Shown piece by piece: positions 24,319-34,835 of a stretch of DNA of 64,000 nt (its first letter is position 1; each line of letters opens with the position of its first letter). Both the position numbers and the translations under genes were made by a program. Under the pieces are notes generated by a model that did not search any database, had not been told where the DNA came from, and was given only the letters and a program-made list of their open reading frames with translations. The stretch is from Candidatus Saganbacteria bacterium (GTDB taxonomy: Bacteria > Margulisbacteria > WOR-1 > XYC2-FULL-46-14 > XYC2-FULL-37-10), in the NCBI GenBank assembly GCA_016223245.1, contig JACRPL010000016.1, forward strand, positions 1,128-65,127, in the 5' to 3' direction.

Positions 24319-25323
24319 TTGCAGTATTGGCATATGGAAGGTGGAATGATGTATTTCAACCCGCAAGTAAAAGAAAAAAAAGAAGATTTTTATAATTATC
24401 AAATATTGCAGGAAGAGCTCAAAAAAGCTGTTTTAGATAAGTTGATCCCACTGATAGCAGTCTATGGGTTGAGGCGAACAGGGAAAACCAGCTTGATCCA
24501 TGTGGTTCTTAATTCGCTGAAAAAGAAATATGTGTGGCTAGATGGGCGGGATATAGAATCCAGAGAAGATTTTCAGGTAAAAATTGCGAATGAAGTTAGG
24601 AAAATGAAGCGATTCAGCATAAAAACCATTTCCATTAAAGGTTTGCAGGTGGATATCGGGCTATTCAAAGAAGGGCTGAATTATTTAAATCAACGCAAAA
24701 CGATCTTGGTAATAGATGAAGCCCAGTTATTAAAAAGAGCCCATTTAGATAAAATTGTCGCCTATATTTACGATAATTATCCGGATATTAAGATCATTCT
24801 ATCGGGATCCGAGATCGGCATGTTGATGGCTTTTCTTGGGAAAGAAGATGCGCAGGCGCCGCTTTTCGGCAGGGCTGTTTTTGATATCCATACCCATAGG
24901 TTGGAAAAGGAGAATTCATTAGGCTTTTTAAGTATTGGCGCAAAACAAGCTAAATTAAATTTCAAAGAAAATGAAATCATGGAAACGATCGCCAATCTGG
25001 ATGGAATAATCGGATGGCTTACAAAGTACGGCTGGTATCGGTTGAATTTTTCGCACAAAGAGGCCTTGCGCAAGACGATCCAAGACGGCAAGTATATCGC
25101 TAAAGAGGAATTCGGCAGGTTTTCGATCCGGTCGGAAAAGAAATATAATTCAATTTTAAGAACATTAAAAGGCGGGGCTGGATGGGAAGAGATAAAAAAG
25201 AAAACAAGGATTTCCGATAAACAACTCTCATCGATGTTAAAAAGAATGACAAGCTATGGTTTTATCGAAAAGCATGACCGGATATATACCATTGCGGACC
25301 CTCTTCTCGAGGCCGCTTTTTAA
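24319..25323 (+). CDS. ATPase of the archaeal-ATPase/AAA family (PF01637-like) inserted between ilvN and ilvC
   Basis: It has a Walker A motif (GLRRTGKTSL) and a Walker B motif (VIDEAQLL). Confidence 0.5.
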   Translation: MQYWHMEGGMMYFNPQVKEKKEDFYNYQILQEELKKAVLDKLIPLIAVYGLRRTGKTSLIHVVLNSLKKKYVWLDGRDIESREDFQVKIANEVRKMKRFSIKTISIKGLQVDIGLFKEGLNYLNQRKTILVIDEAQLLKRAHLDKIVAYIYDNYPDIKIILSGSEIGMLMAFLGKEDAQAPLFGRAVFDIHTHRLEKENSLGFLSIGAKQAKLNFKENEIMETIANLDGIIGWLTKYGWYRLNFSHKEALRKTIQDGKYIAKEEFGRFSIRSEKKYNSILRTLKGGAGWEEIKKKTRISDKQLSSMLKRMTSYGFIEKHDRIYTIADPLLEAAF

Positions 25324-27620: not shown

Positions 27621-28212
27621 TCTTTTTTTTGCAATAGTAGTCTCGTATCTTATTGGTTCGATCCCCTTTAGTTTGATCTTTGCGAAATTATTTACGGATA
27701 CAGATGTTAGGCAAAAGGGCTCGGGCAACGTCGGCGCTACAAATGTCCTTGTCACGACCGGAAAAAAAAGAGCCGCGATCCTATCGGTGTTTTTTGATAT
27801 TCTAAAAGGATTTGTCGCTGTCGCAATTTCTAAGATATTATTTGGAGCCGATATTTATGCCTATACTGCCGGATTGTTTTCGATAATAGGACATGATTTT
27901 CCTGTTTTTCTTGGATTCAAAGGCGGGAAGGGCGTTGCGGCCACGACAGGGGTCTTGATCGCTCTTAATCCAATAGCAATTTGGTTTTGTCTGCTGATCT
28001 ATATTGTTTCGATCTCAATATCCCGCTATCTAATATTATCGAGCATAATTACGATCGGATTTATTCCCTTTATCTTGTGGTTTTTAGGTGAAGGGTTATT
28101 TGGCATAATATTTGGTATTTTGGCGTTTCTTTTAGCTTTATTCGTCCATCGTAATGATATAATAAGACTCCTTTCGGGCAAGGAAGCAAAATTTGATCGG
28201 GGCGTAGCTTAG
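27610..28212 (+). CDS. plsY: Glycerol-3-phosphate acyltransferase PlsY (probable TTG start; the track ORF begins at 27553)
   Basis: It contains LIGSIPFSLIF, GSGNVGATNV and the HDFPVFLGFKGGKGVA motifs. Confidence 0.75.
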   Translation: MFSNLFFAIVVSYLIGSIPFSLIFAKLFTDTDVRQKGSGNVGATNVLVTTGKKRAAILSVFFDILKGFVAVAISKILFGADIYAYTAGLFSIIGHDFPVFLGFKGGKGVAATTGVLIALNPIAIWFCLLIYIVSISISRYLILSSIITIGFIPFILWFLGEGLFGIIFGILAFLLALFVHRNDIIRLLSGKEAKFDRGVA

Positions 28213-28271
28213 CTTGGTGGAGCACTCGCTTGGGGTGCGAGAGGTCGGCCGTTCAAATCGGCTCGCCCCGA
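28198..28271 (+). tRNA. tRNA-Pro (anticodon GGG)
   Basis: The acceptor stem is cggggcg/cgccccg and the anticodon loop is ttGGGgt on a ctcgc/gcgag stem. Confidence 0.65.
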
Positions 28272-28285
28272 TTCTAATCTTTTTT

Positions 28286-28362
28286 CGGAGCGTGGCTCAG
28301 CTTGGTAGAGCGCCTGGTTCGGGACCAGGAGGTCGTGGGTTCGAATCCCGCCGCTCCGACCA
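28286..28362 (+). tRNA. tRNA-Pro (anticodon CGG), encoded CCA included
   Basis: The acceptor stem is cggagcg/cgctccg, the anticodon loop is ttCGGga on a cctgg/ccagg stem, and the T-loop is ttcgaat. Confidence 0.7.
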
Positions 28363-28439
28363 GACTGTACTCTGTGCGGTTTCGGCGGACGATGGGGAAA
28401 GGCCAGCAAAACAGCCCTGCGCGATTTTTCCCCTGTGTT

Positions 28440-28902
28440 CCGCCACAAAATTATACGGCTGCCGCCATTCCCATGAGCATATTGAGCAGTTATCGCCGCA
28501 CCACATTCACCACACCGCAAAAGACCAACAAAAGGGAAATTATGGCCGCTTTTTGTTTTTCTAGGTTTTGAGTTATCTTTTAACACTTTTTGAACGGCTT
28601 CAAAAGTCGCTCGGGAAACAATTGGATCAAACTTGCCTTCGTAAGCTTCGCCGTTGTGGATTATCACAACTCAGGCGATCACTTAAACTTGCTAATGTAT
28701 GCTTGCCATCTGCAAATTCTTCAAAGGCCAATTTGATAATTCTTGCTTTCACTGGATCTGGATCAATGTTTCTAGTTTTGGGATTATTCACATAGCCAAG
28801 CGGAGCCAATCCATTCCATTCACCGCGCCTGAGTTTTTGACGTTTCCCGCGCTTCACATTTTCAGATAAGTTATCTGAATAATAAGAAATAAGGGAGGGC
28901 AT
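28440..28902 (-). pseudogene. Remnant of a large serine recombinase (recombinase domain plus zinc ribbon; catalytic N-domain missing; internal frameshift)
   Basis: ...YYSDNLSENVKRGKRQKLRRGEWNGLAPLGY... lies in ORF 28627..28902 and ...LLRCGECGAAI... in the shifted ORF 28209..28667. The remnant abuts the tRNA-Pro genes. Confidence 0.6.
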
Positions 28903-28910
28903 TATAATTC

Positions 28911-31900
28911 CTAATCAGAAGAAATCATCTGCTTATCAATTCCACCATATTGATTTATAAAAGATAATACTCGAAGACCGCCGTTCACTCCTTCTTCTGG
29001 AAGTTGAAGGATATTAGGATTTTCTTGGGCAATGGTTCTGGCACGTGTCCCAACATTTATACTTAAGGCCTCAGGAAAAGTCATAAGTAGTTCGCGATCA
29101 ATTTGATGTGTTCTGGCTGAATCAGCCATAATAAGCGTGCTAGTCATATCTATTCCTAAGGTATTTATGCAGAATCTAGCAGCATCTTCTTTGTGTTGTA
29201 ATACAACCTTAACGCTGGTCCTGCCAGCTTTATAGAGTTTTACTTCAATTCCGGTATCAGACAGCATTTCTCTCGCTTTTTCAATAAAGTGGTTTCTCGG
29301 ACTTTTAACATGGCGTAAATCTATTCGAAACTCCGGGTTAATGCGGGGCGTTCTTTGGTCTATTTCAAATTGACCCTTAAAATTCTTATCTAGTAAAGCT
29401 ATAACTCTTTGGCGAAAATCAGTAGTTATGCGACTTTTGCGATTATATTCTTCCAGATAAACTTTTGACCCCGCAGCATCAAAGGTAAATCCTCTGGTGG
29501 CACCATCAGAAAAGATCACTAGTCTATGGCGCAATGCTGCAGGAATATATTGAACAACCCTTTCATCAACATTAGCCTCAAGGTCTTCAGTTTCTAAAAT
29601 GAATCGTTTACCATTCCCAAGAATATCAAGTATTTGCTTAAGCATGCTACCGGAGAGATGCTCATCGGTTACGACTAATACTCCGTCAAGGTCAGCAATG
29701 ACATTATCAATTTTAGTAATTTTAGAAGGTTTATCTGTTTTTGTTTCTATTGCTACCCCTAACATGTTGGCTAGTTCCCTGTAATAAAAACGGGATAGAT
29801 TGGCAAACCTTTTTGATCTAACCACCCCGTATCCTTCTTGGTAAGCCAAGTGGAACTCTTTGAAGTGATCTTTATCATCAAAAAATGCAGGGGTATGTCT
29901 GTCACCATACATAAATTTTTGTCTTATTTGATGAGGAACTGCATCGGGTTCCGCGGCCGCTTGGACAAATATCACTGCCGGACCTTCTATTTTAGAAATG
30001 TCATCCAACCTGGCCGCTTGTGTATTCTTCTTTTTCCCCACTCGTAAATAAAGGTACTTATTGCCAGGGTACCAGAAATATAAACGATATGGCTGAGCCT
30101 CTTTAGGTTTATCTGCTTCCTTTTTTATGGTACTCACCAATTTGTTAAATCCATTTGTGCGGGTTAACCCATCCAAGAAATCTCTATCTTCTCCAAAATC
30201 CTCAGGAACCACATTGCCCAAGAGAGCCCTATTTAGTGCCATAAAATAATTACGGTAACCTTTAAAGGCATCCGGTATGTGCGGTGATGTCCTATGCGGA
30301 TCACTAACTGAAGTAGAAGCGTCAACTACGATGACAATCGGGTTTTGTTGAACCAATGTTCTTAATTGAGAAGAAGTAAAAAGATTAAGATTTAAAACAT
30401 ATTCATTAGTATGGCTTTCGGTGGAGCCAACTTTTGTACTTACAACCGGGATATTTGTACCTACAATTGTCTTCCTGCCATGCCGTTCCTGCAAAATTGG
30501 TGTTAAGGCTACCTCGCCATAAGAAAGATTTGCAACGACCATCACTTTTCGCCCAATTGTTTCAGCATGTTTTTGAATTTCAAGGATTTTTTCTCTTAGA
30601 AGATGTGCCTCATAAGCAACTGCGCGAACCTGAAGTTTCAGCTCTGTGGGAATATCTCTTCTATAGAAACGCCCTTTTTCGCCTTCTTCTACCATAACCA
30701 GATATTCTTCAAAGGTTAGTTCTTTTGGTGAAGATCCTTCCACCACTTTAATAGCATCAAAATAATTTAGGAGTAGGTGCAAGGGATTATTTTTATCAAA
30801 ACTACCATGTATAATTTCTCTTTCGGCTTCAAATGACGGAGAAATCGGCAATAAAGAGTCGAGCATGTTATGATCGGCCAAAACATTTAAGGCCTGGAAA
30901 AGCTTGTCCATTTTATTCCCAGCTATTTCTCTCAGCCCTTTTATGTCCCCAGGTTTAATTTTCTCCAATACTTTTGCATTTAAACTAGACGTAATTGCCT
31001 TTACATAATCCAAGTAACTCTTAACACGTTTTCTTTTCGTATCGTCAGGGAAATTTACCAGTATCATCCCACCAGGGCGGCTATTGTCCGTGAAATACTC
31101 ATATTCTTCAAAATAATCAATAAATTCTTTTATTAATACCAATTGTCCTATGCTTTCTGCCCCCCTAAGAAGCTCTGGCACAACATTTGATCCCAATGCC
31201 TTAGTTTCGCCCTTCCACCATTCCTCATCATGCGTAGGTAATTCGGGTAACAACGTCGCTTTTAAATAGGCCATTTCGTCCGTTATACTTTCATGAGACT
31301 TGCAAATAGCCGCAAGCAGTGCTTTTAACCCCATGTGCCACTCGCTCAATTCTTTCGTGCTTTTTGCTTTCGAGATTAATATAGAAAGAGCAGATTGAAC
31401 GTATGAACCAACAGCATCAGATGCGCCAAGGATAAACCAGCTATTGTTGTCATATATCCTAACTTCTTTATCAGCAATTATAGCTTTTGCTTCATTGTCC
31501 CATTCTTTCAGTTCCGCAGTGTTTTTTACCTTCCCAAGCAAAATTGGAAGTGTATACTCTAAGTGCCAATCGGGCGATCCAAATTTCTCAAAATAATCAA
31601 CAAGCAGGGTCATGATTTCTTTATTCCATTCTTCTAGTTCTTTAACATTTTCAACTTTTGAAAGCAAAACTTTCAAAAGTTTTACGCTGTCATTGATTAC
31701 ATCCTCAATTCTAGAAAGGGAAGATTTTTCGAATTTTTGAAAATAATCAGTAATCAGTAATAGAATTTCTCTGTTCCATTCTTTTAATTCATCAAAGCTT
31801 TTTACCTTCCCAACTAAAATGGGAAGAACTTCTTTTGCATAGGTATCGGCCGTAAATAGTTGACGGCAATCAGCAACCAGAGACTTTATGCTTTTTAATT

Positions 31901-33644
31901 CTTCAATACTTCCTACCGCTTTAATTAAAGTTAGAAGGGCGCTATTTTTGTAAATATACGGCTCTCCAGCAATCAGGGATAGGATTTCTTTACTCCATTC
32001 TTTTAACTCCTCGATGCTTTTCACCTTTTCAAGTAAAGCGGGAAGAATTTCTTTTATATAATGATCGGACTTTTCGTTGGGTGGCCAATGATATTCTGGA
32101 CCAAGTAAATTAATAAGTCTGAATACAAGATTCATTGTTTCATAATTTGTTTTATTCTTTTCTTTAATAATTTCGGGCCACAATTTAGATAACTTTTGAG
32201 ATGCAATCCGGGATATAGTCTGAGCACATGATCTCTCCATCTCTTCTCTTTGTGCTTCTTTTTCTTTACTACCCCATAAGTCGCCAATAATTCTGAAAAG
32301 CCCAACTTCGATTGGTGCATATTTCATTAATGTTGGTTTGCTATCTCTTGTTGCATGGAATTCAAGGCTGATATATTGCTTTGAAAATTCAATAAATTCT
32401 TCTACATTTGAAAATTCATCGGCGTTCCTGCTCGCTATTTTAATCTTTAGTGCTTCTATTAGCCGATTCCTAATTTGTTCCCCATCTTCATGATCGTAAA
32501 GGGCAATTTGAAGCCATAGATAAGCCAATAAATATGACACCTCGATGTTTTCACCGCTTAATAGATACGGCAATAAATTATAAAATAGAGGCCTACAAAT
32601 AGTAGCAAGCTTATCTTTTTTGCTATTTTCCTTACAGATGTACGCAAAGGTAATAAATGCTCTCTCTGATAATAATGGTGCATTAAGTGCTAGTGTTTTT
32701 AAAAATTCAAGACATTCTTCTGAACTGCTTTCAAGCATAAAAAGACCTAACGTCTGGATGAAAAATCCATTTTCTTTAAGATTTGGCTTACCAGCGGCTT
32801 CTTTAATCAATATCCCGGCAAATTCTGCTTTTTGCTCAGGGCTGATATTATGATAAATATAAGACATAATATTGTAAATATCTTTATTAATTTCACGAAA
32901 TATATCCCGATGATATCCGCATGAATCTAACGGCATAACGATCCCTAGCTCAAGTATCTTTCTTGCAAATTCTATTTTTTGGTCAGAAGGGAGATTATAT
33001 GCAATCTGATGCATAAGATATGTCAGCCCCTTCTCGATAGATAGGAAGGGAATGCCTAATTTCCCCTTTGTTTTTTCGCCAAAGCCTGCATATAAAAGAC
33101 GATTCCAACAAAACTCTTTCGTAAACTTGAGAAAATCAATCAAAGTCCCTGCAAGTAAAAAGCTTTTTCCTGTGCTGAGAAAAGGCATAACCCTACTTAT
33201 CTTAATCATGTTTTGATAGATCTTTAGATGTGTTTTTAATGCAATCTTGTCTTGAGATGAGTGATATAATTCTTTATCTCCAACCTTTGCAAGCAATTCT
33301 TGCAATCTTCCGATCAGTCTCAGCCCTTTTCTTTCTTTGCCGAAAGGCAAACTCAAGCATTGAGAAGTAAATGTTTCTGGGATTACGCTAAGGTCAAATG
33401 CTATGTTTGTTGCCTCTTTTACTCGGATTGGGTTAATTTTCAGTCTTCCAGTAAATCTACATAGAACATCTCTTCCCTTTAGTGCAGTCATGGTTTCATC
33501 AACCAAATGAGTTCTTTCAGCTTCTGTCTGAGCAACGGAAGATTTAATTAGAGCATTTCTTAAAAAAGGATTACCTCTTCCAAAATGATAGCCAATAAAG
33601 CCGCGTGTTCGATAAAAGATAGGGCTACTGACCATTTTTAACAT
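28911..33644 (-). CDS. Giant (1577 aa) multidomain hypothetical protein with an N-terminal helical-repeat region, a central alpha/beta domain of unknown function and a C-terminal HAD-like domain
   Basis: There is a five-fold tandem repeat of about 38 aa (KVKSxEELKEWxKEIxxLIxDYFxKF). The C-terminal region carries VIADLDGVLVV, resembling HAD motif I, and IFSDGATRG, resembling Cof-type motif II. Its DNA is AT-rich relative to its neighbours. Confidence 0.5.
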   Translation of the reverse strand: MLKMVSSPIFYRTRGFIGYHFGRGNPFLRNALIKSSVAQTEAERTHLVDETMTALKGRDVLCRFTGRLKINPIRVKEATNIAFDLSVIPETFTSQCLSLPFGKERKGLRLIGRLQELLAKVGDKELYHSSQDKIALKTHLKIYQNMIKISRVMPFLSTGKSFLLAGTLIDFLKFTKEFCWNRLLYAGFGEKTKGKLGIPFLSIEKGLTYLMHQIAYNLPSDQKIEFARKILELGIVMPLDSCGYHRDIFREINKDIYNIMSYIYHNISPEQKAEFAGILIKEAAGKPNLKENGFFIQTLGLFMLESSSEECLEFLKTLALNAPLLSERAFITFAYICKENSKKDKLATICRPLFYNLLPYLLSGENIEVSYLLAYLWLQIALYDHEDGEQIRNRLIEALKIKIASRNADEFSNVEEFIEFSKQYISLEFHATRDSKPTLMKYAPIEVGLFRIIGDLWGSKEKEAQREEMERSCAQTISRIASQKLSKLWPEIIKEKNKTNYETMNLVFRLINLLGPEYHWPPNEKSDHYIKEILPALLEKVKSIEELKEWSKEILSLIAGEPYIYKNSALLTLIKAVGSIEELKSIKSLVADCRQLFTADTYAKEVLPILVGKVKSFDELKEWNREILLLITDYFQKFEKSSLSRIEDVINDSVKLLKVLLSKVENVKELEEWNKEIMTLLVDYFEKFGSPDWHLEYTLPILLGKVKNTAELKEWDNEAKAIIADKEVRIYDNNSWFILGASDAVGSYVQSALSILISKAKSTKELSEWHMGLKALLAAICKSHESITDEMAYLKATLLPELPTHDEEWWKGETKALGSNVVPELLRGAESIGQLVLIKEFIDYFEEYEYFTDNSRPGGMILVNFPDDTKRKRVKSYLDYVKAITSSLNAKVLEKIKPGDIKGLREIAGNKMDKLFQALNVLADHNMLDSLLPISPSFEAEREIIHGSFDKNNPLHLLLNYFDAIKVVEGSSPKELTFEEYLVMVEEGEKGRFYRRDIPTELKLQVRAVAYEAHLLREKILEIQKHAETIGRKVMVVANLSYGEVALTPILQERHGRKTIVGTNIPVVSTKVGSTESHTNEYVLNLNLFTSSQLRTLVQQNPIVIVVDASTSVSDPHRTSPHIPDAFKGYRNYFMALNRALLGNVVPEDFGEDRDFLDGLTRTNGFNKLVSTIKKEADKPKEAQPYRLYFWYPGNKYLYLRVGKKKNTQAARLDDISKIEGPAVIFVQAAAEPDAVPHQIRQKFMYGDRHTPAFFDDKDHFKEFHLAYQEGYGVVRSKRFANLSRFYYRELANMLGVAIETKTDKPSKITKIDNVIADLDGVLVVTDEHLSGSMLKQILDILGNGKRFILETEDLEANVDERVVQYIPAALRHRLVIFSDGATRGFTFDAAGSKVYLEEYNRKSRITTDFRQRVIALLDKNFKGQFEIDQRTPRINPEFRIDLRHVKSPRNHFIEKAREMLSDTGIEVKLYKAGRTSVKVVLQHKEDAARFCINTLGIDMTSTLIMADSARTHQIDRELLMTFPEALSINVGTRARTIAQENPNILQLPEEGVNGGLRVLSFINQYGGIDKQMISSD

Positions 33645-33882: not shown

Positions 33883-34110
33883 TTAATGGGTGTTCCTTTT
33901 CTTCTTTTTAGGCACAAATTCCAGAATATCCCCAACGGAGCAGTCTAATAAGGCGCAGAGTTTTTCCAGCGTCTCAAATTTAATGCCGGAAACTTCCTCA
34001 TTGTAAAGACTAGATAGGGTATTTGGATTTATTCCTGTTTTTCTGGCAATCTCAGCGGCGCGCATTTTTCGCTCCCCTAGCAATTTCCCCAAATGAATTT
34101 TTATTGGCAT
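33883..34110 (-). CDS. XRE-family helix-turn-helix transcriptional regulator
   Basis: It has a Cro/C1-type HTH (MRAAEIARKTGINPNTLSSLYNEE) and is 75 aa. Confidence 0.7.
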   Translation of the reverse strand: MPIKIHLGKLLGERKMRAAEIARKTGINPNTLSSLYNEEVSGIKFETLEKLCALLDCSVGDILEFVPKKKKRNTH

Positions 34111-34206
34111 TCCCCCTTTTCCTTTGTTGTTATCAAATTATACGCCCACAATAATACTTCAGTCAAATGCAATAATAGAAAGTACCATTTTGGGCATAAA
34201 AAGCTC

Positions 34207-34236
34207 TTGACATTTATACTACTATATTGGTATAAT
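34207..34236 (+). promoter_or_regulatory. Near-consensus sigma70 promoter (TTGACA-N18-TATAAT) upstream of the DprA-like gene
   Basis: The sequence ttgacatttatactactatattggtataat is present, with the ATG at 34275. Confidence 0.5.
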
Positions 34237-34274: not shown

Positions 34275-34835
34275 ATGAAATGTGTTGGTATCGAGGGTTC
34301 AAGAAGTCTGCCAGATAATTTTCGCTTTCATGTTCGCGAGGTTGTTTCACATCTTCTGGCAAAAGGGTGTTACATAAATTCTGGCGGCGCAATGGGAGCT
34401 GATTCATATGTAATTGCCGCGCTTCTCAGATACGGCAAGGCATACAGAGGAGTGATCTATTCGGCATGGAGTTATTTCTCTGGTTTTCCCTATTCGGTAA
34501 GGCAGGAAATCGGCGAGTTCGCCAAAAGAGGCGGGAGAATAGATTGGGGTACGGTTCAGCCCGACCCGATGGGAAAAGAAGTAATCGCTGGTCTTTTGGG
34601 AAGAAATAGAAAATTAGTGCAAAATTCTGATGCGCTAATTGCGTATTTTTATGGAGAATCCAGAGGAACAATATATACGATAAGGGAAGCAAGAAAAAAG
34701 AACCTCCCGATAATTGTTTTTGTTTGCGATCCTGTTTCATCCCGATTATATCAAAATCTCGACAGACAAATCGGTGGCCAAATCAAAATCTTCGAGATCA
34801 GCACACAATCTATGCCGGATAAACTTTTTGTTTGA
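34275..34835 (+). CDS. Short DprA/Smf-like Rossmann-fold (SLOG-family, DUF2493-like) protein
   Basis: It has GIEGSRSLP..., SGGAMGADSYVIAALL and LLGRNRKLVQNSDALIAYF...TIYTIREARKKNLPIIVF, which match the DprA core motifs. Confidence 0.55.
   Translation: MKCVGIEGSRSLPDNFRFHVREVVSHLLAKGCYINSGGAMGADSYVIAALLRYGKAYRGVIYSAWSYFSGFPYSVRQEIGEFAKRGGRIDWGTVQPDPMGKEVIAGLLGRNRKLVQNSDALIAYFYGESRGTIYTIREARKKNLPIIVFVCDPVSSRLYQNLDRQIGGQIKIFEISTQSMPDKLFV

What the first reader, a model, noticed from the sequence alone, without database searches (positions are those of the whole stretch)
28911..33644. Giant protein architecture: five-fold 38-aa helical tandem repeats, an unknown central domain and a C-terminal HAD-like phosphatase signature
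The repeat units are LLEKVKSIEELKEWSKEILSLIAGE, LVGKVKSFDELKEWNREILLLITDYFQKF, LLSKVENVKELEEWNKEIMTLLVDYFEKF, LLGKVKNTAELKEWDNEAKAIIAD and LISKAKSTKELSEWHMGLKALLAAI. The C-terminal 280 aa carry VIADLDGVLVV, which resembles HAD motif I (hhhDxDGxL), and IFSDGATRG, which resembles the Cof-type (S/T)GR motif II; motif IV looks degenerate (IMADSARTHQID). The central segment (...IVIVVDASTSVSDPHR...) is an alpha/beta block I cannot place. A helical-repeat scaffold joined to a possible phosphatase is not an architecture I recognise.
Basis: partly seen in the sequence, partly recalled or inferred. Interest (0 to 1): 0.6.

Follow-up and report, generated by a model that had tools for sequence, protein, structure and literature searches.

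The report
Scaffold protein with PRTase-like/HAD enzyme pair
A 1,577-residue orphan protein in a Saganbacteria genome joins a helical-repeat scaffold to a conserved pair of enzyme domains: an undescribed domain with a distant phosphoribosyltransferase-like fold, then an intact HAD phosphatase. This pair also occurs in large and giant proteins of Omnitrophota and related uncultivated microbes, and may be a new sugar-phosphate transfer-then-dephosphorylation machine.

Summary
The ORF is real (28911-33644, minus strand; NCBI MBI5701437.1, "hypothetical protein", Candidatus Saganbacteria). The repeats are real: five strong copies and one degenerate copy, but the unit is about 42 aa with 42-73 aa spacing, not 38. 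The C-terminal HAD call is confirmed by the AlphaFold model, by Foldseek matches to Cof/SPP/PMM-type HADs (E 3.7e-11), and by all four catalytic motifs being intact. Motif II is T1352, not "IFSDGATRG".

Domains A and B form a fixed A-then-B module in 46 of the 150 best relatives (900-7,391 aa; Omnitrophota, Elusimicrobiota, Auribacterota). One relative has a canonical Pribosyltran domain where A normally sits.

My best reading (confidence about 0.4) is PRPP-dependent phosphoribosyl transfer followed by dephosphorylation, analogous to CriT-CrpP but not homologous to it. The gene has low GC3 and sits beside tRNA-Pro and a decayed integrase, so it was probably acquired horizontally.

The parts
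28911..33644 (-). Whole ORF, 1577 aa (probably 1574 aa from the second ATG at 33635). NCBI MBI5701437.1, hypothetical protein, Candidatus Saganbacteria.
   Evidence: No transmembrane-like hydrophobic segment.
32073..33644 (-). N-terminal region, aa 1-524. No detectable homologue and no curated family. Lowest GC3 in the gene (0.29).
   Evidence: The word-index search found nothing, but it also missed the protein itself, so the negative is weak.
31290..32072 (-). Repeat array, aa 525-785. Five strong copies of a roughly 42-aa unit (aa 525-564, 598-639, 648-689, 690-725, 744-785) and one degenerate copy (565-592). Consensus: Y.kevLPiLl.KVks..ELkEW..Ei..Li.dYf.kf.
   Evidence: The same repeat family makes up whole proteins elsewhere: P0067, P0107, P0119, P0135, P0138, P0143.
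30816..31289 (-). Linker, aa 786-943. Its C-terminal part (from aa 927) is modelled as helices packing onto domain A.
   Evidence: helices at model residues 8-103.
29748..30815 (-). Domain A, aa 944-1299: an undescribed conserved alpha/beta domain with a distant PRTase-like core. Invariant or near-invariant residues: E1012, N1039 (NLSYG loop), S1074 and H1078 (KVGSTESH loop), D1108 (end of the VVVD strand, followed by ASTS), D1125, N1132, H1250, D1256-D1257.
28938..29720 (-). Domain B, aa 1309-1569: HAD-superfamily phosphatase with a C2B-type cap (Cof/SPP/PMM-like). Motif I D1318-L-D1320-G-V; motif II T1352; motif III K1485; motif IV D1508...D1516.
   Evidence: AF2 pLDDT mostly above 90 in this part. 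Foldseek against PDB: 4bnd E 3.7e-11, 1s2o SPP, YbiV, SupH, T6PP, ISN1, all at probability 1.00. Conservation across 52 homologous domains. Hydrolase_3 or S6PP Pfam hits in homologues.
33883..34110 (-). 75-aa XRE-family helix-turn-helix gene, same strand, 238 bp upstream of the large gene. Probable regulator, possibly co-transcribed.
   Evidence: The relative P0013 carries two XRE HTH domains inside the polypeptide.
34137..34166 (-). Sigma-70-like promoter match (11 of 12) just upstream of the HTH gene. No comparable match lies in the HTH-to-large-gene gap.
   Evidence: This is a consensus match only, and the number of matches in the region does not exceed the shuffles.
28440..28902 (-). Frameshifted, truncated remnant of a large serine integrase. 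It matches positions 217-402 of a 651-position profile, so the catalytic N-terminus is missing. It abuts the 3' end of the large gene.
   Evidence: phrog_95, E 4.9e-14 and 7.3e-15.
28197..28362 (+). Two tandem tRNA-Pro genes (GGG, CGG) marking the edge of the low-GC islet.

Best explanation
The protein is a cytoplasmic, horizontally acquired scaffold enzyme. The N-terminal roughly 900 aa appear to be a helical scaffold that includes a 42-aa repeat array. I infer that it selects a partner or substrate. The C-terminal roughly 650 aa are a conserved two-enzyme module.

Domain A has a core shaped like a type I phosphoribosyltransferase. I propose that it binds PRPP, or a related phosphorylated sugar donor, in the loops that follow its first three parallel strands (NLSYG, KVGSTESH, VVVD-ASTS). 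It would then transfer the 5-phosphoribosyl group to an acceptor.

Domain B is an intact HAD phosphatase: D1318 nucleophile, D1320 acid/base, T1352, K1485, and D1508/D1516 for Mg2+. I propose that it removes the phosphate from that product.

The logic is the same as in the PRPP-dependent ribofuranosyltransferases (gPRT-PRP; CriT-CrpP of Haemophilus Bcs3). It is built from non-orthologous parts and in the opposite domain order.

Shown: the ORF, the repeats, the conservation and fixed order of the module, the HAD fold and its motifs, and the absence of domain A from every curated family scanned (Pfam, NCBIfam, PADLOC and PHROGs; the only A-region entries were chance-level PDB sequence matches, TraK E 0.2-0.25).
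Inferred: the PRTase-like chemistry of A, PRPP as donor, the coupling of A to B, the acceptor, the role of the scaffold, and regulation by the upstream XRE gene.
For: (1) A and B behave as one unit. Of the 150 best representatives, 46 carry both domains. The order is A then B in 48 of 51 cases, with a linker of 37 aa or less in 38.
(2) B is a bona fide HAD. Foldseek gives E down to 3.7e-11 at probability 1.0 to HAD-IIB phosphatases and mutases. The catalytic residues are 92-100% conserved and all present in the window protein. Homologues reach the Pfam Hydrolase_3 or S6PP thresholds.
(4) Invariant polar residues sit in the loops after strands 1, 2 and 3 (secondary structure). CriT and classical PRTases bind PRPP in the equivalent loops (PMC10299916).
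(5) Domain swap: P0058 has a canonical Pfam Pribosyltran domain (E 4.5e-12, aa 475-590) fused directly to a family-B HAD domain (aa 581-862), in the position A normally occupies.
(6) In five fetched Omnitrophota loci (about four non-redundant) the module gene lies directly upstream of pyrR (PRTase)-pyrB-pyrC, which are PRPP/pyrimidine genes.
(7) One relative fuses the module to a SLOG cluster-4 domain. From general knowledge, that is a nucleotide/ribose-phosphate-binding family.
(8) The PRTase-plus-HAD two-step precedent is established biochemically (PMC10299916, PMC11231755).
Against: Foldseek finds no significant PDB match for A (best E 0.087).
Profile comparisons of A with the P0058 PRTase and with PyrR find nothing. 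A sequence profile against PDB chains also finds nothing.
The canonical PRPP motif (two acidic residues followed by TG.T) is absent. There is a single Asp followed by A/G-S/T.
Most family members (87 of 133) carry A without B, so dephosphorylation is not obligatory.
HAD-IIB also includes phosphomutases, and the top hit, 4bnd, is one. B might therefore not be a phosphatase.
No glycan-synthesis or other informative operon partner is conserved. The pyr synteny could simply be inherited gene order within Omnitrophota.
I could not inspect model coordinates to check that the conserved residues cluster in one pocket.
Confidence: 0.4

Rival explanations
1. Generic enzymes-on-a-scaffold metabolism. Domain A is an enzyme or ligand-binding domain unrelated in chemistry to PRTases, for example a new glycosyl- or phospho-transferase. 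Domain B is a sugar-phosphate phosphatase or phosphomutase, as in synthase/phosphatase pairs such as SPS-SPP or TPS-TPP. The protein would be a small relative of the multi-enzyme HEAT-scaffold proteins of Omnitrophota.
For: The HAD hits are to sugar-phosphate enzymes: SPP, T6PP, PMM, alpha-PGM, YbiV, SupH. There is a weak SPP NCBIfam hit (E 0.051) and S6PP Pfam hits in two homologues. Relatives carry HEAT repeats and are very large. Published descriptions of Omnitrophota giants list sugar-metabolism enzymes tiled on HEAT scaffolds. The PRTase signal for A is weak.
Confidence: 0.28
2. Conflict or defence effector carried on a mobile islet. The PRTase-like/HAD module depletes or modifies PRPP or nucleotides, or modifies an invader's or host's macromolecule, under control of the adjacent XRE regulator. 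This would be comparable in spirit to the PRTase effectors of Shosta and some retrons.
For: The setting is an islet: tRNA-Pro, a decayed serine integrase, low GC3 (0.31 against 0.40-0.48 in neighbours), and an XRE gene directly upstream. Several relatives lie in variable or mobile contexts: a tyrosine integrase next to P0063, a HigB/HigA-like pair next to P0058, PLD and GIY-YIG nucleases near P0027, a YhcG nuclease in L025 and an AAA_14/DUF4143 ATPase in L019. The neighbouring 186-aa DprA-like protein gives a weak ShosA match (E 1.6e-6). The ISN1 IMP-nucleotidase is among the best HAD matches.
Against: The large protein has no PADLOC hit. No relative was found on viral contigs. The DprA-like gene is divergently oriented and heads an operon with an M23 peptidase and rsmI. 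It is unrelated in sequence to the SLOG protein near the Omnitrophota homologue. Many relatives lie among housekeeping genes such as rpoB, pyrBC and miaA. Sizes up to 7,391 aa are untypical of defence effectors.
Confidence: 0.17
3. Domain A is catalytically inert: a structural or ligand-sensing domain. The only enzyme in the protein is then the HAD phosphatase, tethered to a binding scaffold.
For: A has no sequence-detectable relation to any enzyme family. Foldseek finds nothing.
Against: A has about ten invariant or near-invariant polar residues (E, N, S, H, D, D, N, H, DD) across 135 sequences at only 23-61% identity. That pattern is typical of an active site. A also occurs without B in 87 of 133 proteins, usually as the C-terminal domain, so it has a function of its own.
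Confidence: 0.1

Closest known systems
PRPP-dependent glycan ribofuranosyltransferases: the gPRT-PRP dual-domain enzymes, i.e. CriT-CrpP of Haemophilus influenzae Bcs3 (PDB 8a0c) and the Thermobacillus composti enzyme (PDB 7shg)
   Different: There is no detectable sequence homology. The domain order is reversed: here PRT-like then HAD, there HAD then PRT. The HAD here has a C2B alpha/beta cap (Cof/SPP-like) rather than the helical cap inserted in the flap of CrpP. The gene has no polysaccharide gene cluster, glycosyltransferase or ABC-transporter context. The module sits on a roughly 900-aa helical scaffold. The acceptor is unknown.
HAD superfamily, subfamily IIB (Cof-type phosphatases, sucrose-6-phosphate phosphatase, trehalose-6-phosphate phosphatase, phosphomannomutase, ISN1 IMP-nucleotidase)
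   Same: Fold, cap type and all four catalytic motifs match. Homologues reach the Pfam Hydrolase_3 and S6PP thresholds.
   Different: The window protein itself scores below every Pfam HAD model and far below the SPP equivalog (13 bits against a cut-off of 183.65). Motif IV has an unusually long D...D spacing. The domain is always embedded in large multidomain proteins.
Type I phosphoribosyltransferases (HGPRT, UPRT, PyrR, APRT)
   Same: The core of parallel strands and flanking helices superposes over 117-140 residues at 3.0-6.2 A rmsd. A hydrophobic strand ends in an invariant Asp followed by small hydroxyl residues, like the PRPP loop.
   Different: The canonical motif (two acidic residues followed by TG.T) is absent and there is no Pfam Pribosyltran hit. 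Profile-profile similarity is nil. The domain is twice the size, with an N-terminal helical bundle, a helical insertion and an extra beta-rich part.
Large and giant HEAT-repeat multi-enzyme proteins of Omnitrophota ('Archaeovorins' and 'multi-enzyme metabolic clusters')
   Same: Enzyme domains are tiled on alpha-solenoid scaffolds. The A+B module is found inside Omnitrophota ORFs of 1,760 to more than 5,800 aa. HAD, NUDIX and LOG-like domains are listed for those giants.
   Different: The window protein is only 1,577 aa. It has no transmembrane segment, SecA_DEAD or peptidase domain. It comes from a different phylum (Saganbacteria). The module described here is not mentioned in those papers.

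Membership tests
HAD superfamily (phosphatase/mutase) | Motif I DxDx(T/V), carrying the nucleophile and the acid/base Asp | tested here: met
   D1318-L-D1320-G-V1322. D1318 is 100% and D1320 92% conserved in 52 homologous domains.
HAD superfamily (phosphatase/mutase) | Motif II Ser/Thr, motif III Lys, motif IV acidic residues | tested here: met
   T1352 (92%), K1485 (100%), D1516 (96%), plus D1508. The spacing of the motif IV acids is longer than the usual GDxxxD.
HAD superfamily (phosphatase/mutase) | Rossmannoid HAD fold | tested here: met
   AF2 model m6d15846a9bfc (pLDDT 88.6, and above 90 across domain B). Foldseek against PDB gave 119 hits with E<=0.001, and all 50 listed are HAD-family phosphatases or mutases.
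HAD subfamily IIB (Cof/SPP/PMM type) | Alpha/beta C2 cap inserted between motifs II and III, with no C1 cap after motif I | tested here: met
   Only 34 aa lie between motifs I and II, and 133 aa of mixed helices and strands lie between motifs II and III. The best structural matches are all IIB members.
HAD subfamily IIB (Cof/SPP/PMM type) | Score above the curated threshold of Pfam Hydrolase_3/S6PP or NCBIfam SPP | tested here: not met
   The window protein has no Pfam hit at E<=1. SPP_plant-cyano scores 13.1 bits against a cut-off of 183.65. Homologues do pass Hydrolase_3 or S6PP.
Type I phosphoribosyltransferase | PRPP-binding sequence motif (hydrophobic strand, two acidic residues, then a T/S-G-x-T loop) and a Pfam Pribosyltran match | tested here: not met
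   The sequence is IVIVVD1108-ASTSVS, with a single acidic residue and no TGxT. There is no Pfam hit. hhalign against two PRTase sets gave probability below 1%.
Type I phosphoribosyltransferase | PRTase core fold | tested here: inconclusive
gPRT-PRP ribofuranosyltransferase (CriT-CrpP type) | Sequence or structural homology of the transferase domain to CriT/7shg | tested here: inconclusive
gPRT-PRP ribofuranosyltransferase (CriT-CrpP type) | Adjacent HAD phosphatase of the CrpP type (helical cap, N-terminal to the transferase) | tested here: not met
   A HAD domain is adjacent, but it is C-terminal to the transferase-like domain and has a C2B cap.
gPRT-PRP ribofuranosyltransferase (CriT-CrpP type) | Location in a polysaccharide (capsule or O-antigen) biosynthesis cluster | tested here: not met
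   The window neighbours are tRNA-Pro, an integrase remnant, an XRE gene, a dprA-like gene, M23, rsmI, and ilv/lysC/plsY. Homologue loci show no GT or ABC-transporter partners.
gPRT-PRP ribofuranosyltransferase (CriT-CrpP type) | PRPP-dependent transfer of ribofuranose-5-phosphate followed by 5-dephosphorylation | not testable with these tools
   Needs biochemistry.
HEAT/ARM repeat proteins | Match to Pfam HEAT-type repeat models | tested here: not met
   The window protein has no hit. Several relatives have strong HEAT_2/HEAT_PBS hits. The 42-aa repeat is a family of its own.
Shosta (ShosT PRTase + ShosA DprA-like) defence system | Matches to the PADLOC ShosT and ShosA models in adjacent genes | tested here: not met
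   The large protein has no PADLOC hit. The 186-aa neighbour gives only a partial ShosA match (E 1.6e-6, 53 aa) and belongs to another operon.
Omnitrophota giant proteins (Archaeovorin type) | More than 30,000 aa, numerous transmembrane regions, SecA_DEAD domains | tested here: not met
   1,577 aa, no hydrophobic segment above threshold, no Pfam hit. The definition is taken from bioRxiv 10.1101/2023.11.21.568195.

The most novel reading that the evidence does not exclude
Domain A founds a new family of PRPP-dependent (phospho)ribosyltransferases. They would act on a macromolecule or an unusual metabolite selected by the attached alpha-solenoid scaffold, with or without a dedicated HAD 5'-phosphatase. 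The family would be exchanged horizontally among ultra-small, host-associated lineages (Omnitrophota, Elusimicrobiota, Auribacterota, Saganbacteria, Woesearchaeota), possibly as part of their interaction with host cells.
Probability: 0.2. Interest if true: 0.8.

Novelty: new variant of a known kind. Interest (0 to 1): 0.55.

Why it matters
Domain A is a well-folded, strongly conserved and apparently catalytic domain. No curated library describes it, and Foldseek finds no match for it in the PDB.

It marks about 200 protein clusters (213 representatives at E<=1e-3) that appear confined to uncultivated lineages, including the giant-protein-bearing Omnitrophota and DPANN archaea. If it is a PRPP-dependent transferase, it would be a third, independent solution to "ribosylate, then dephosphorylate" chemistry. 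It would also give a first functional handle on a recurring block within the largely unannotated giant proteins of Omnitrophota.

The 650-aa module from this window is a compact version suitable for direct biochemical testing.

Tried and rejected
- Pfam, NCBIfam, PADLOC and PHROGs scans of the whole protein found nothing useful. phmmer against PDB sequences gave only chance-level hits.
- The word-index homologue search found only the protein itself with the whole protein as query, only 8 proteins with the module profile, and nothing for aa 1-524. That last search did not even return the self-hit, so it has low sensitivity and is not evidence of absence.
- Tandem Repeats Finder on the DNA found no array, because the repeat is too diverged and irregularly spaced. 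The repeat finder did recover it.
- A profile of the domain A alignment against PDB sequences returned only spurious helical hits, from N-terminal columns of the alignment.
- Foldseek against PDB with domain A alone gave no significant hit. The AFDB library was not available.
- hhalign of domain A against the canonical PRTase of P0058 and against PyrR showed no similarity.
- I looked for att-like direct repeats flanking the islet and found none convincing.
- I tested whether the window's DprA-like neighbour is related to the SLOG protein near the Omnitrophota homologue or to any fused domain. It is not.
- The viral contig scan gave no relatives.
- Clustering of neighbouring genes over about 30 loci found only the pyrR-pyrB-pyrC block in a subset of Omnitrophota, and Zn_peptidase_2-miaA next to the two closest homologues. 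Nothing is conserved family-wide.
- I rejected an ORF artefact or pseudogene, because homologues reach E 4e-247 and the catalytic motifs are intact.
- I rejected "a fusion of known metabolic enzymes", because only the HAD part is known.
Full report
**1. Observation**

The window carries a single long ORF at 28911..33644 on the minus strand, 1577 aa.

The repeats are real. Ungapped 24-residue self-comparisons score 55-88, against at most 37 in shuffled sequence. A profile of the units finds five strong copies (aa 525-564, 598-639, 648-689, 690-725, 744-785; 63-78 bits each) and one degenerate copy (565-592). The repeat is still visible in the DNA at 60-77% identity. The unit is about 42 aa and the spacing is irregular (42-73 aa), so "38-aa tandem" is not accurate.

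The GGGAG Shine-Dalgarno-like element abuts the first ATG, so the second ATG (M4) is the likelier start. An independent gene call gives 1574 aa.

**2. Where it is**

Exact look-ups place the window in a Candidatus Saganbacteria MAG. The protein is MBI5701437.1, "hypothetical protein".

The flanks are housekeeping genes: ilvB, ilvC, aspartate kinase and plsY on one side, and rsmI, an M23 peptidase and a TonB receptor on the other.

The gene itself lies in a small islet:
- Two tRNA-Pro genes.
- A frameshifted remnant of a large serine integrase lacking its catalytic N-terminus.
- The large gene.
- A 75-aa XRE helix-turn-helix gene 238 bp upstream on the same strand.

GC3 of the large gene is 0.31, against 0.40-0.48 in the neighbours. 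The best promoter-like match on the minus strand lies upstream of the HTH gene, and none lies in the gap before the large gene. These are consensus matches only. Together this suggests horizontal acquisition and possibly an HTH-plus-large-gene transcription unit.

**3. Homologues**

Curated libraries and the word-index search were blind to the protein.

The exhaustive HMMER search with aa 378-1577 found 213 cluster representatives at E<=1e-3, and 76 at E<=1e-30. Similarity is confined to two blocks: domain A (aa ~944-1299) and domain B (aa ~1309-1569).

Among the 150 best representatives:
- 133 carry A, 53 carry B and 46 carry both.
- The order is A then B in 48 of 51 cases.
- The linker is 37 aa or less in 38 cases. 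In 8 cases a HEAT-repeat spacer of about 330 aa separates the two.
- 87 proteins have A alone. In 68 of these A is at the extreme C-terminus. Their median length is 919 aa.
- Some proteins carry two copies of A.

Host proteins range from about 900 to 7,391 aa. Named sources are Omnitrophota and Elusimicrobiota MAGs, Candidatus Auribacterota and, for an A-only protein, a Woesearchaeota archaeon. There were no relatives on viral contigs.

The 42-aa repeat is a separate family. It builds whole proteins elsewhere, such as P0067, P0107 and P0119. P0067 and P0119 have lipoprotein-like N-termini, and P0067 lies next to a further 749-aa unannotated ORF and TPR genes.

The first 524 aa have no detectable relative. 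The protein has no hydrophobic segment.

**4. Domain B**

The module (aa 927-1577) was modelled with a 20-sequence alignment at mean pLDDT 88.6, and above 90 throughout domain B. Foldseek against the PDB returned 119 hits with E<=0.001, and all 50 listed are HAD-family phosphatases or mutases. They include alpha-phosphoglucomutase/PMM 4bnd (E 3.7e-11), ISN1 IMP-nucleotidases, SupH, YbiV, sucrose-phosphatase 1s2o and trehalose-6-P phosphatase.

Across 52 homologous domains the catalytic positions are D1318 (100%), D1320 (92%), T1352 (92%), K1485 (100%) and D1516 (96%). All are present in the window protein. The 133-aa alpha/beta insertion between motifs II and III is a C2B cap.

Pfam Hydrolase_3 or S6PP is reached by several homologues but not by the window protein. 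Its motif II assignment ("IFSDGATRG") is not: that segment opens the cap.

**5. Domain A**

No Pfam or NCBIfam model matches domain A in the window protein or in any of the more than 50 relatives scanned.

A 54-sequence alignment gave a confident model (pLDDT 92.5, pTM 0.89). Its layout is an N-terminal helical bundle, three parallel strands each followed by a conserved loop, a helical insertion, and a further beta-rich part.

The invariant residues of the family are E1012, N1039, S1074, D1108 and D1256. Near-invariant are G1043, H1078, D1125, N1132, H1250 and D1257. N1039, S1074/H1078 and D1108 sit in the loops after strands 1, 2 and 3. PRTases and CriT hold the pyrophosphate, ribose and 5-phosphate of PRPP in those loops (PMC10299916).

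The sequence does not carry the canonical PRPP motif. Profile comparisons with real PRTases are negative. The fold assignment is therefore a consistent but weak signal.

**6. Independent support for a PRTase-HAD partnership**

- P0058 (1189 aa) has a canonical Pfam Pribosyltran domain (E 4.5e-12, aa 475-590) running directly into a family-B HAD domain (aa 581-862). A bona fide PRTase thus occupies the slot normally held by A.
- In five fetched Omnitrophota loci (about four non-redundant: L008/L009, L010/L033, L018, L019), the module-bearing gene is immediately followed by pyrR (a PRTase), pyrB and pyrC. The proteins in these loci are very different in size. This may reflect a link to PRPP/pyrimidine metabolism or merely inherited synteny.
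- P0010 fuses the module to a SLOG cluster-4 domain. P0013 fuses it to two XRE HTH domains, echoing the XRE gene upstream in the window. P0011 fuses it to a Methyltransf_28 domain.

No other neighbour is conserved. Several relatives sit beside integrases, toxin-antitoxin genes or nucleases.

**7. Mechanism proposed**

By analogy with the biochemically established gPRT-PRP/CriT-CrpP enzymes, I propose the following:
- Domain A transfers a 5-phosphoribosyl group from PRPP to an acceptor.
- Domain B removes the 5-phosphate.
- The N-terminal helical scaffold, including the 42-aa repeats, provides partner or substrate recognition.

In the known enzymes a PRTase-like transferase moves ribofuranose-5-phosphate from PRPP onto an acceptor, and a fused HAD phosphatase then removes the 5-phosphate (PMC10299916, PMC11231755).

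Confidence in the HAD assignment is high, about 0.95. Confidence in the PRTase-like fold is about 0.6. Confidence in the full two-step PRPP mechanism is about 0.4.

The main caveats:
- The structural score is weak.
- The PRPP motif is missing.
- Most family members carry A without B.
- HAD-IIB also includes mutases.
- The acceptor is unknown.

**8. Rivals**

- (a) A generic synthase/phosphatase or other multi-enzyme metabolic module on a scaffold, with A having different chemistry (0.28).
- (b) A conflict or defence effector carried on a mobile islet (0.17). Variable-region contexts and the XRE gene support this. The absence of PADLOC hits, the frequent housekeeping contexts and the very large relatives count against it.
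- (c) A is non-catalytic (0.10). Its invariant polar residues and its stand-alone occurrence argue against this.

**9. Comparison and novelty**

The protein works most like the gPRT-PRP ribofuranosyltransferases, but it is not a member of that family. There is no sequence homology, the domain order is reversed, the HAD cap type differs and there is no glycan-cluster context.

Domain B is a member of HAD subfamily IIB by fold and motifs, though it scores below the curated thresholds.

The overall design, enzymes on alpha-solenoid scaffolds, matches what has been described for large and giant Omnitrophota proteins. Those papers do not mention this module.

I rate it a new variant of a known kind. 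It is a conserved, undescribed domain family paired with a HAD phosphatase, found here in compact and probably horizontally acquired form in a Saganbacterium.

Noticed in passing
window 28209-28902 (-), overlapping tRNA-Pro at 28197-28362 (+): Two ORF fragments match positions 217-277 and 321-402 of a 651-position large serine integrase profile (phrog_95). The catalytic N-terminus and the C-terminus are missing, so this is a decayed integrase. The distal part of the second ORF is just the antisense of the tRNA genes.
   Followed up: partly
window 34275-34835 (+): A 186-aa protein annotated as DprA contains only the Rossmann-like core (Pfam DNA_processg_A, 33 bits) and gives a weak ShosA/PsyrA PADLOC match. 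It overlaps the start of an M23 peptidase gene and is followed by rsmI. It has a perfect 12/12 sigma-70-like promoter match at 34207-34236. An Omnitrophota homologue locus (L010) also has rsmI immediately upstream and a small SLOG/DprA-like gene downstream of the module gene, but the two small proteins share no sequence similarity.
   Followed up: partly
window 24319-25323 (+): A 334-aa AAA_14/ATPase_2 ('archaeal ATPase') gene with an MCM-like winged-helix C-terminus lies between the acetolactate synthase genes and ilvC. Its GC (0.39) is lower than that of the ilv genes. It may be an inserted gene. A related AAA_14/DUF4143 gene sits next to the module gene in locus L019.
   Followed up: no
L008, L009, L010/L033, L018, L019 (Omnitrophota loci): pyrR-pyrB-pyrC lie directly downstream, on the same strand, of module-bearing genes of very different length (1,760 to more than 5,800 aa).
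   Followed up: partly
L026 1028-17121: The module gene is flanked by an inverted duplication of four genes (379, 223, 434 and ~512-542 aa) on each side. This is either a large inverted repeat or a fold-back assembly artefact.
   Followed up: no
L041 4298-8700; proteins P0067 and P0119: Proteins made almost entirely of the same 42-aa repeat have lipoprotein-type N-termini (for example ...LAAGSLALSAC). P0067 sits directly upstream of a further 749-aa unannotated ORF and TPR-repeat genes. In other organisms the repeat family therefore appears to be extracytoplasmic, unlike its setting in the window protein, which lacks a signal peptide.
   Followed up: partly
L036 and L014: The two closest homologues (P0002 at 55% and P0151 at 52% identity) share downstream synteny: a Zn_peptidase_2 gene followed by miaA. 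This suggests the module gene is vertically inherited there, in contrast to the islet context in the window.
   Followed up: no
L037 185-824: P0058 has the canonical PRTase fused to the family-B HAD. It lies next to a Gp49/HigB-like toxin gene and an HTH_3 antitoxin-like gene.
   Followed up: no
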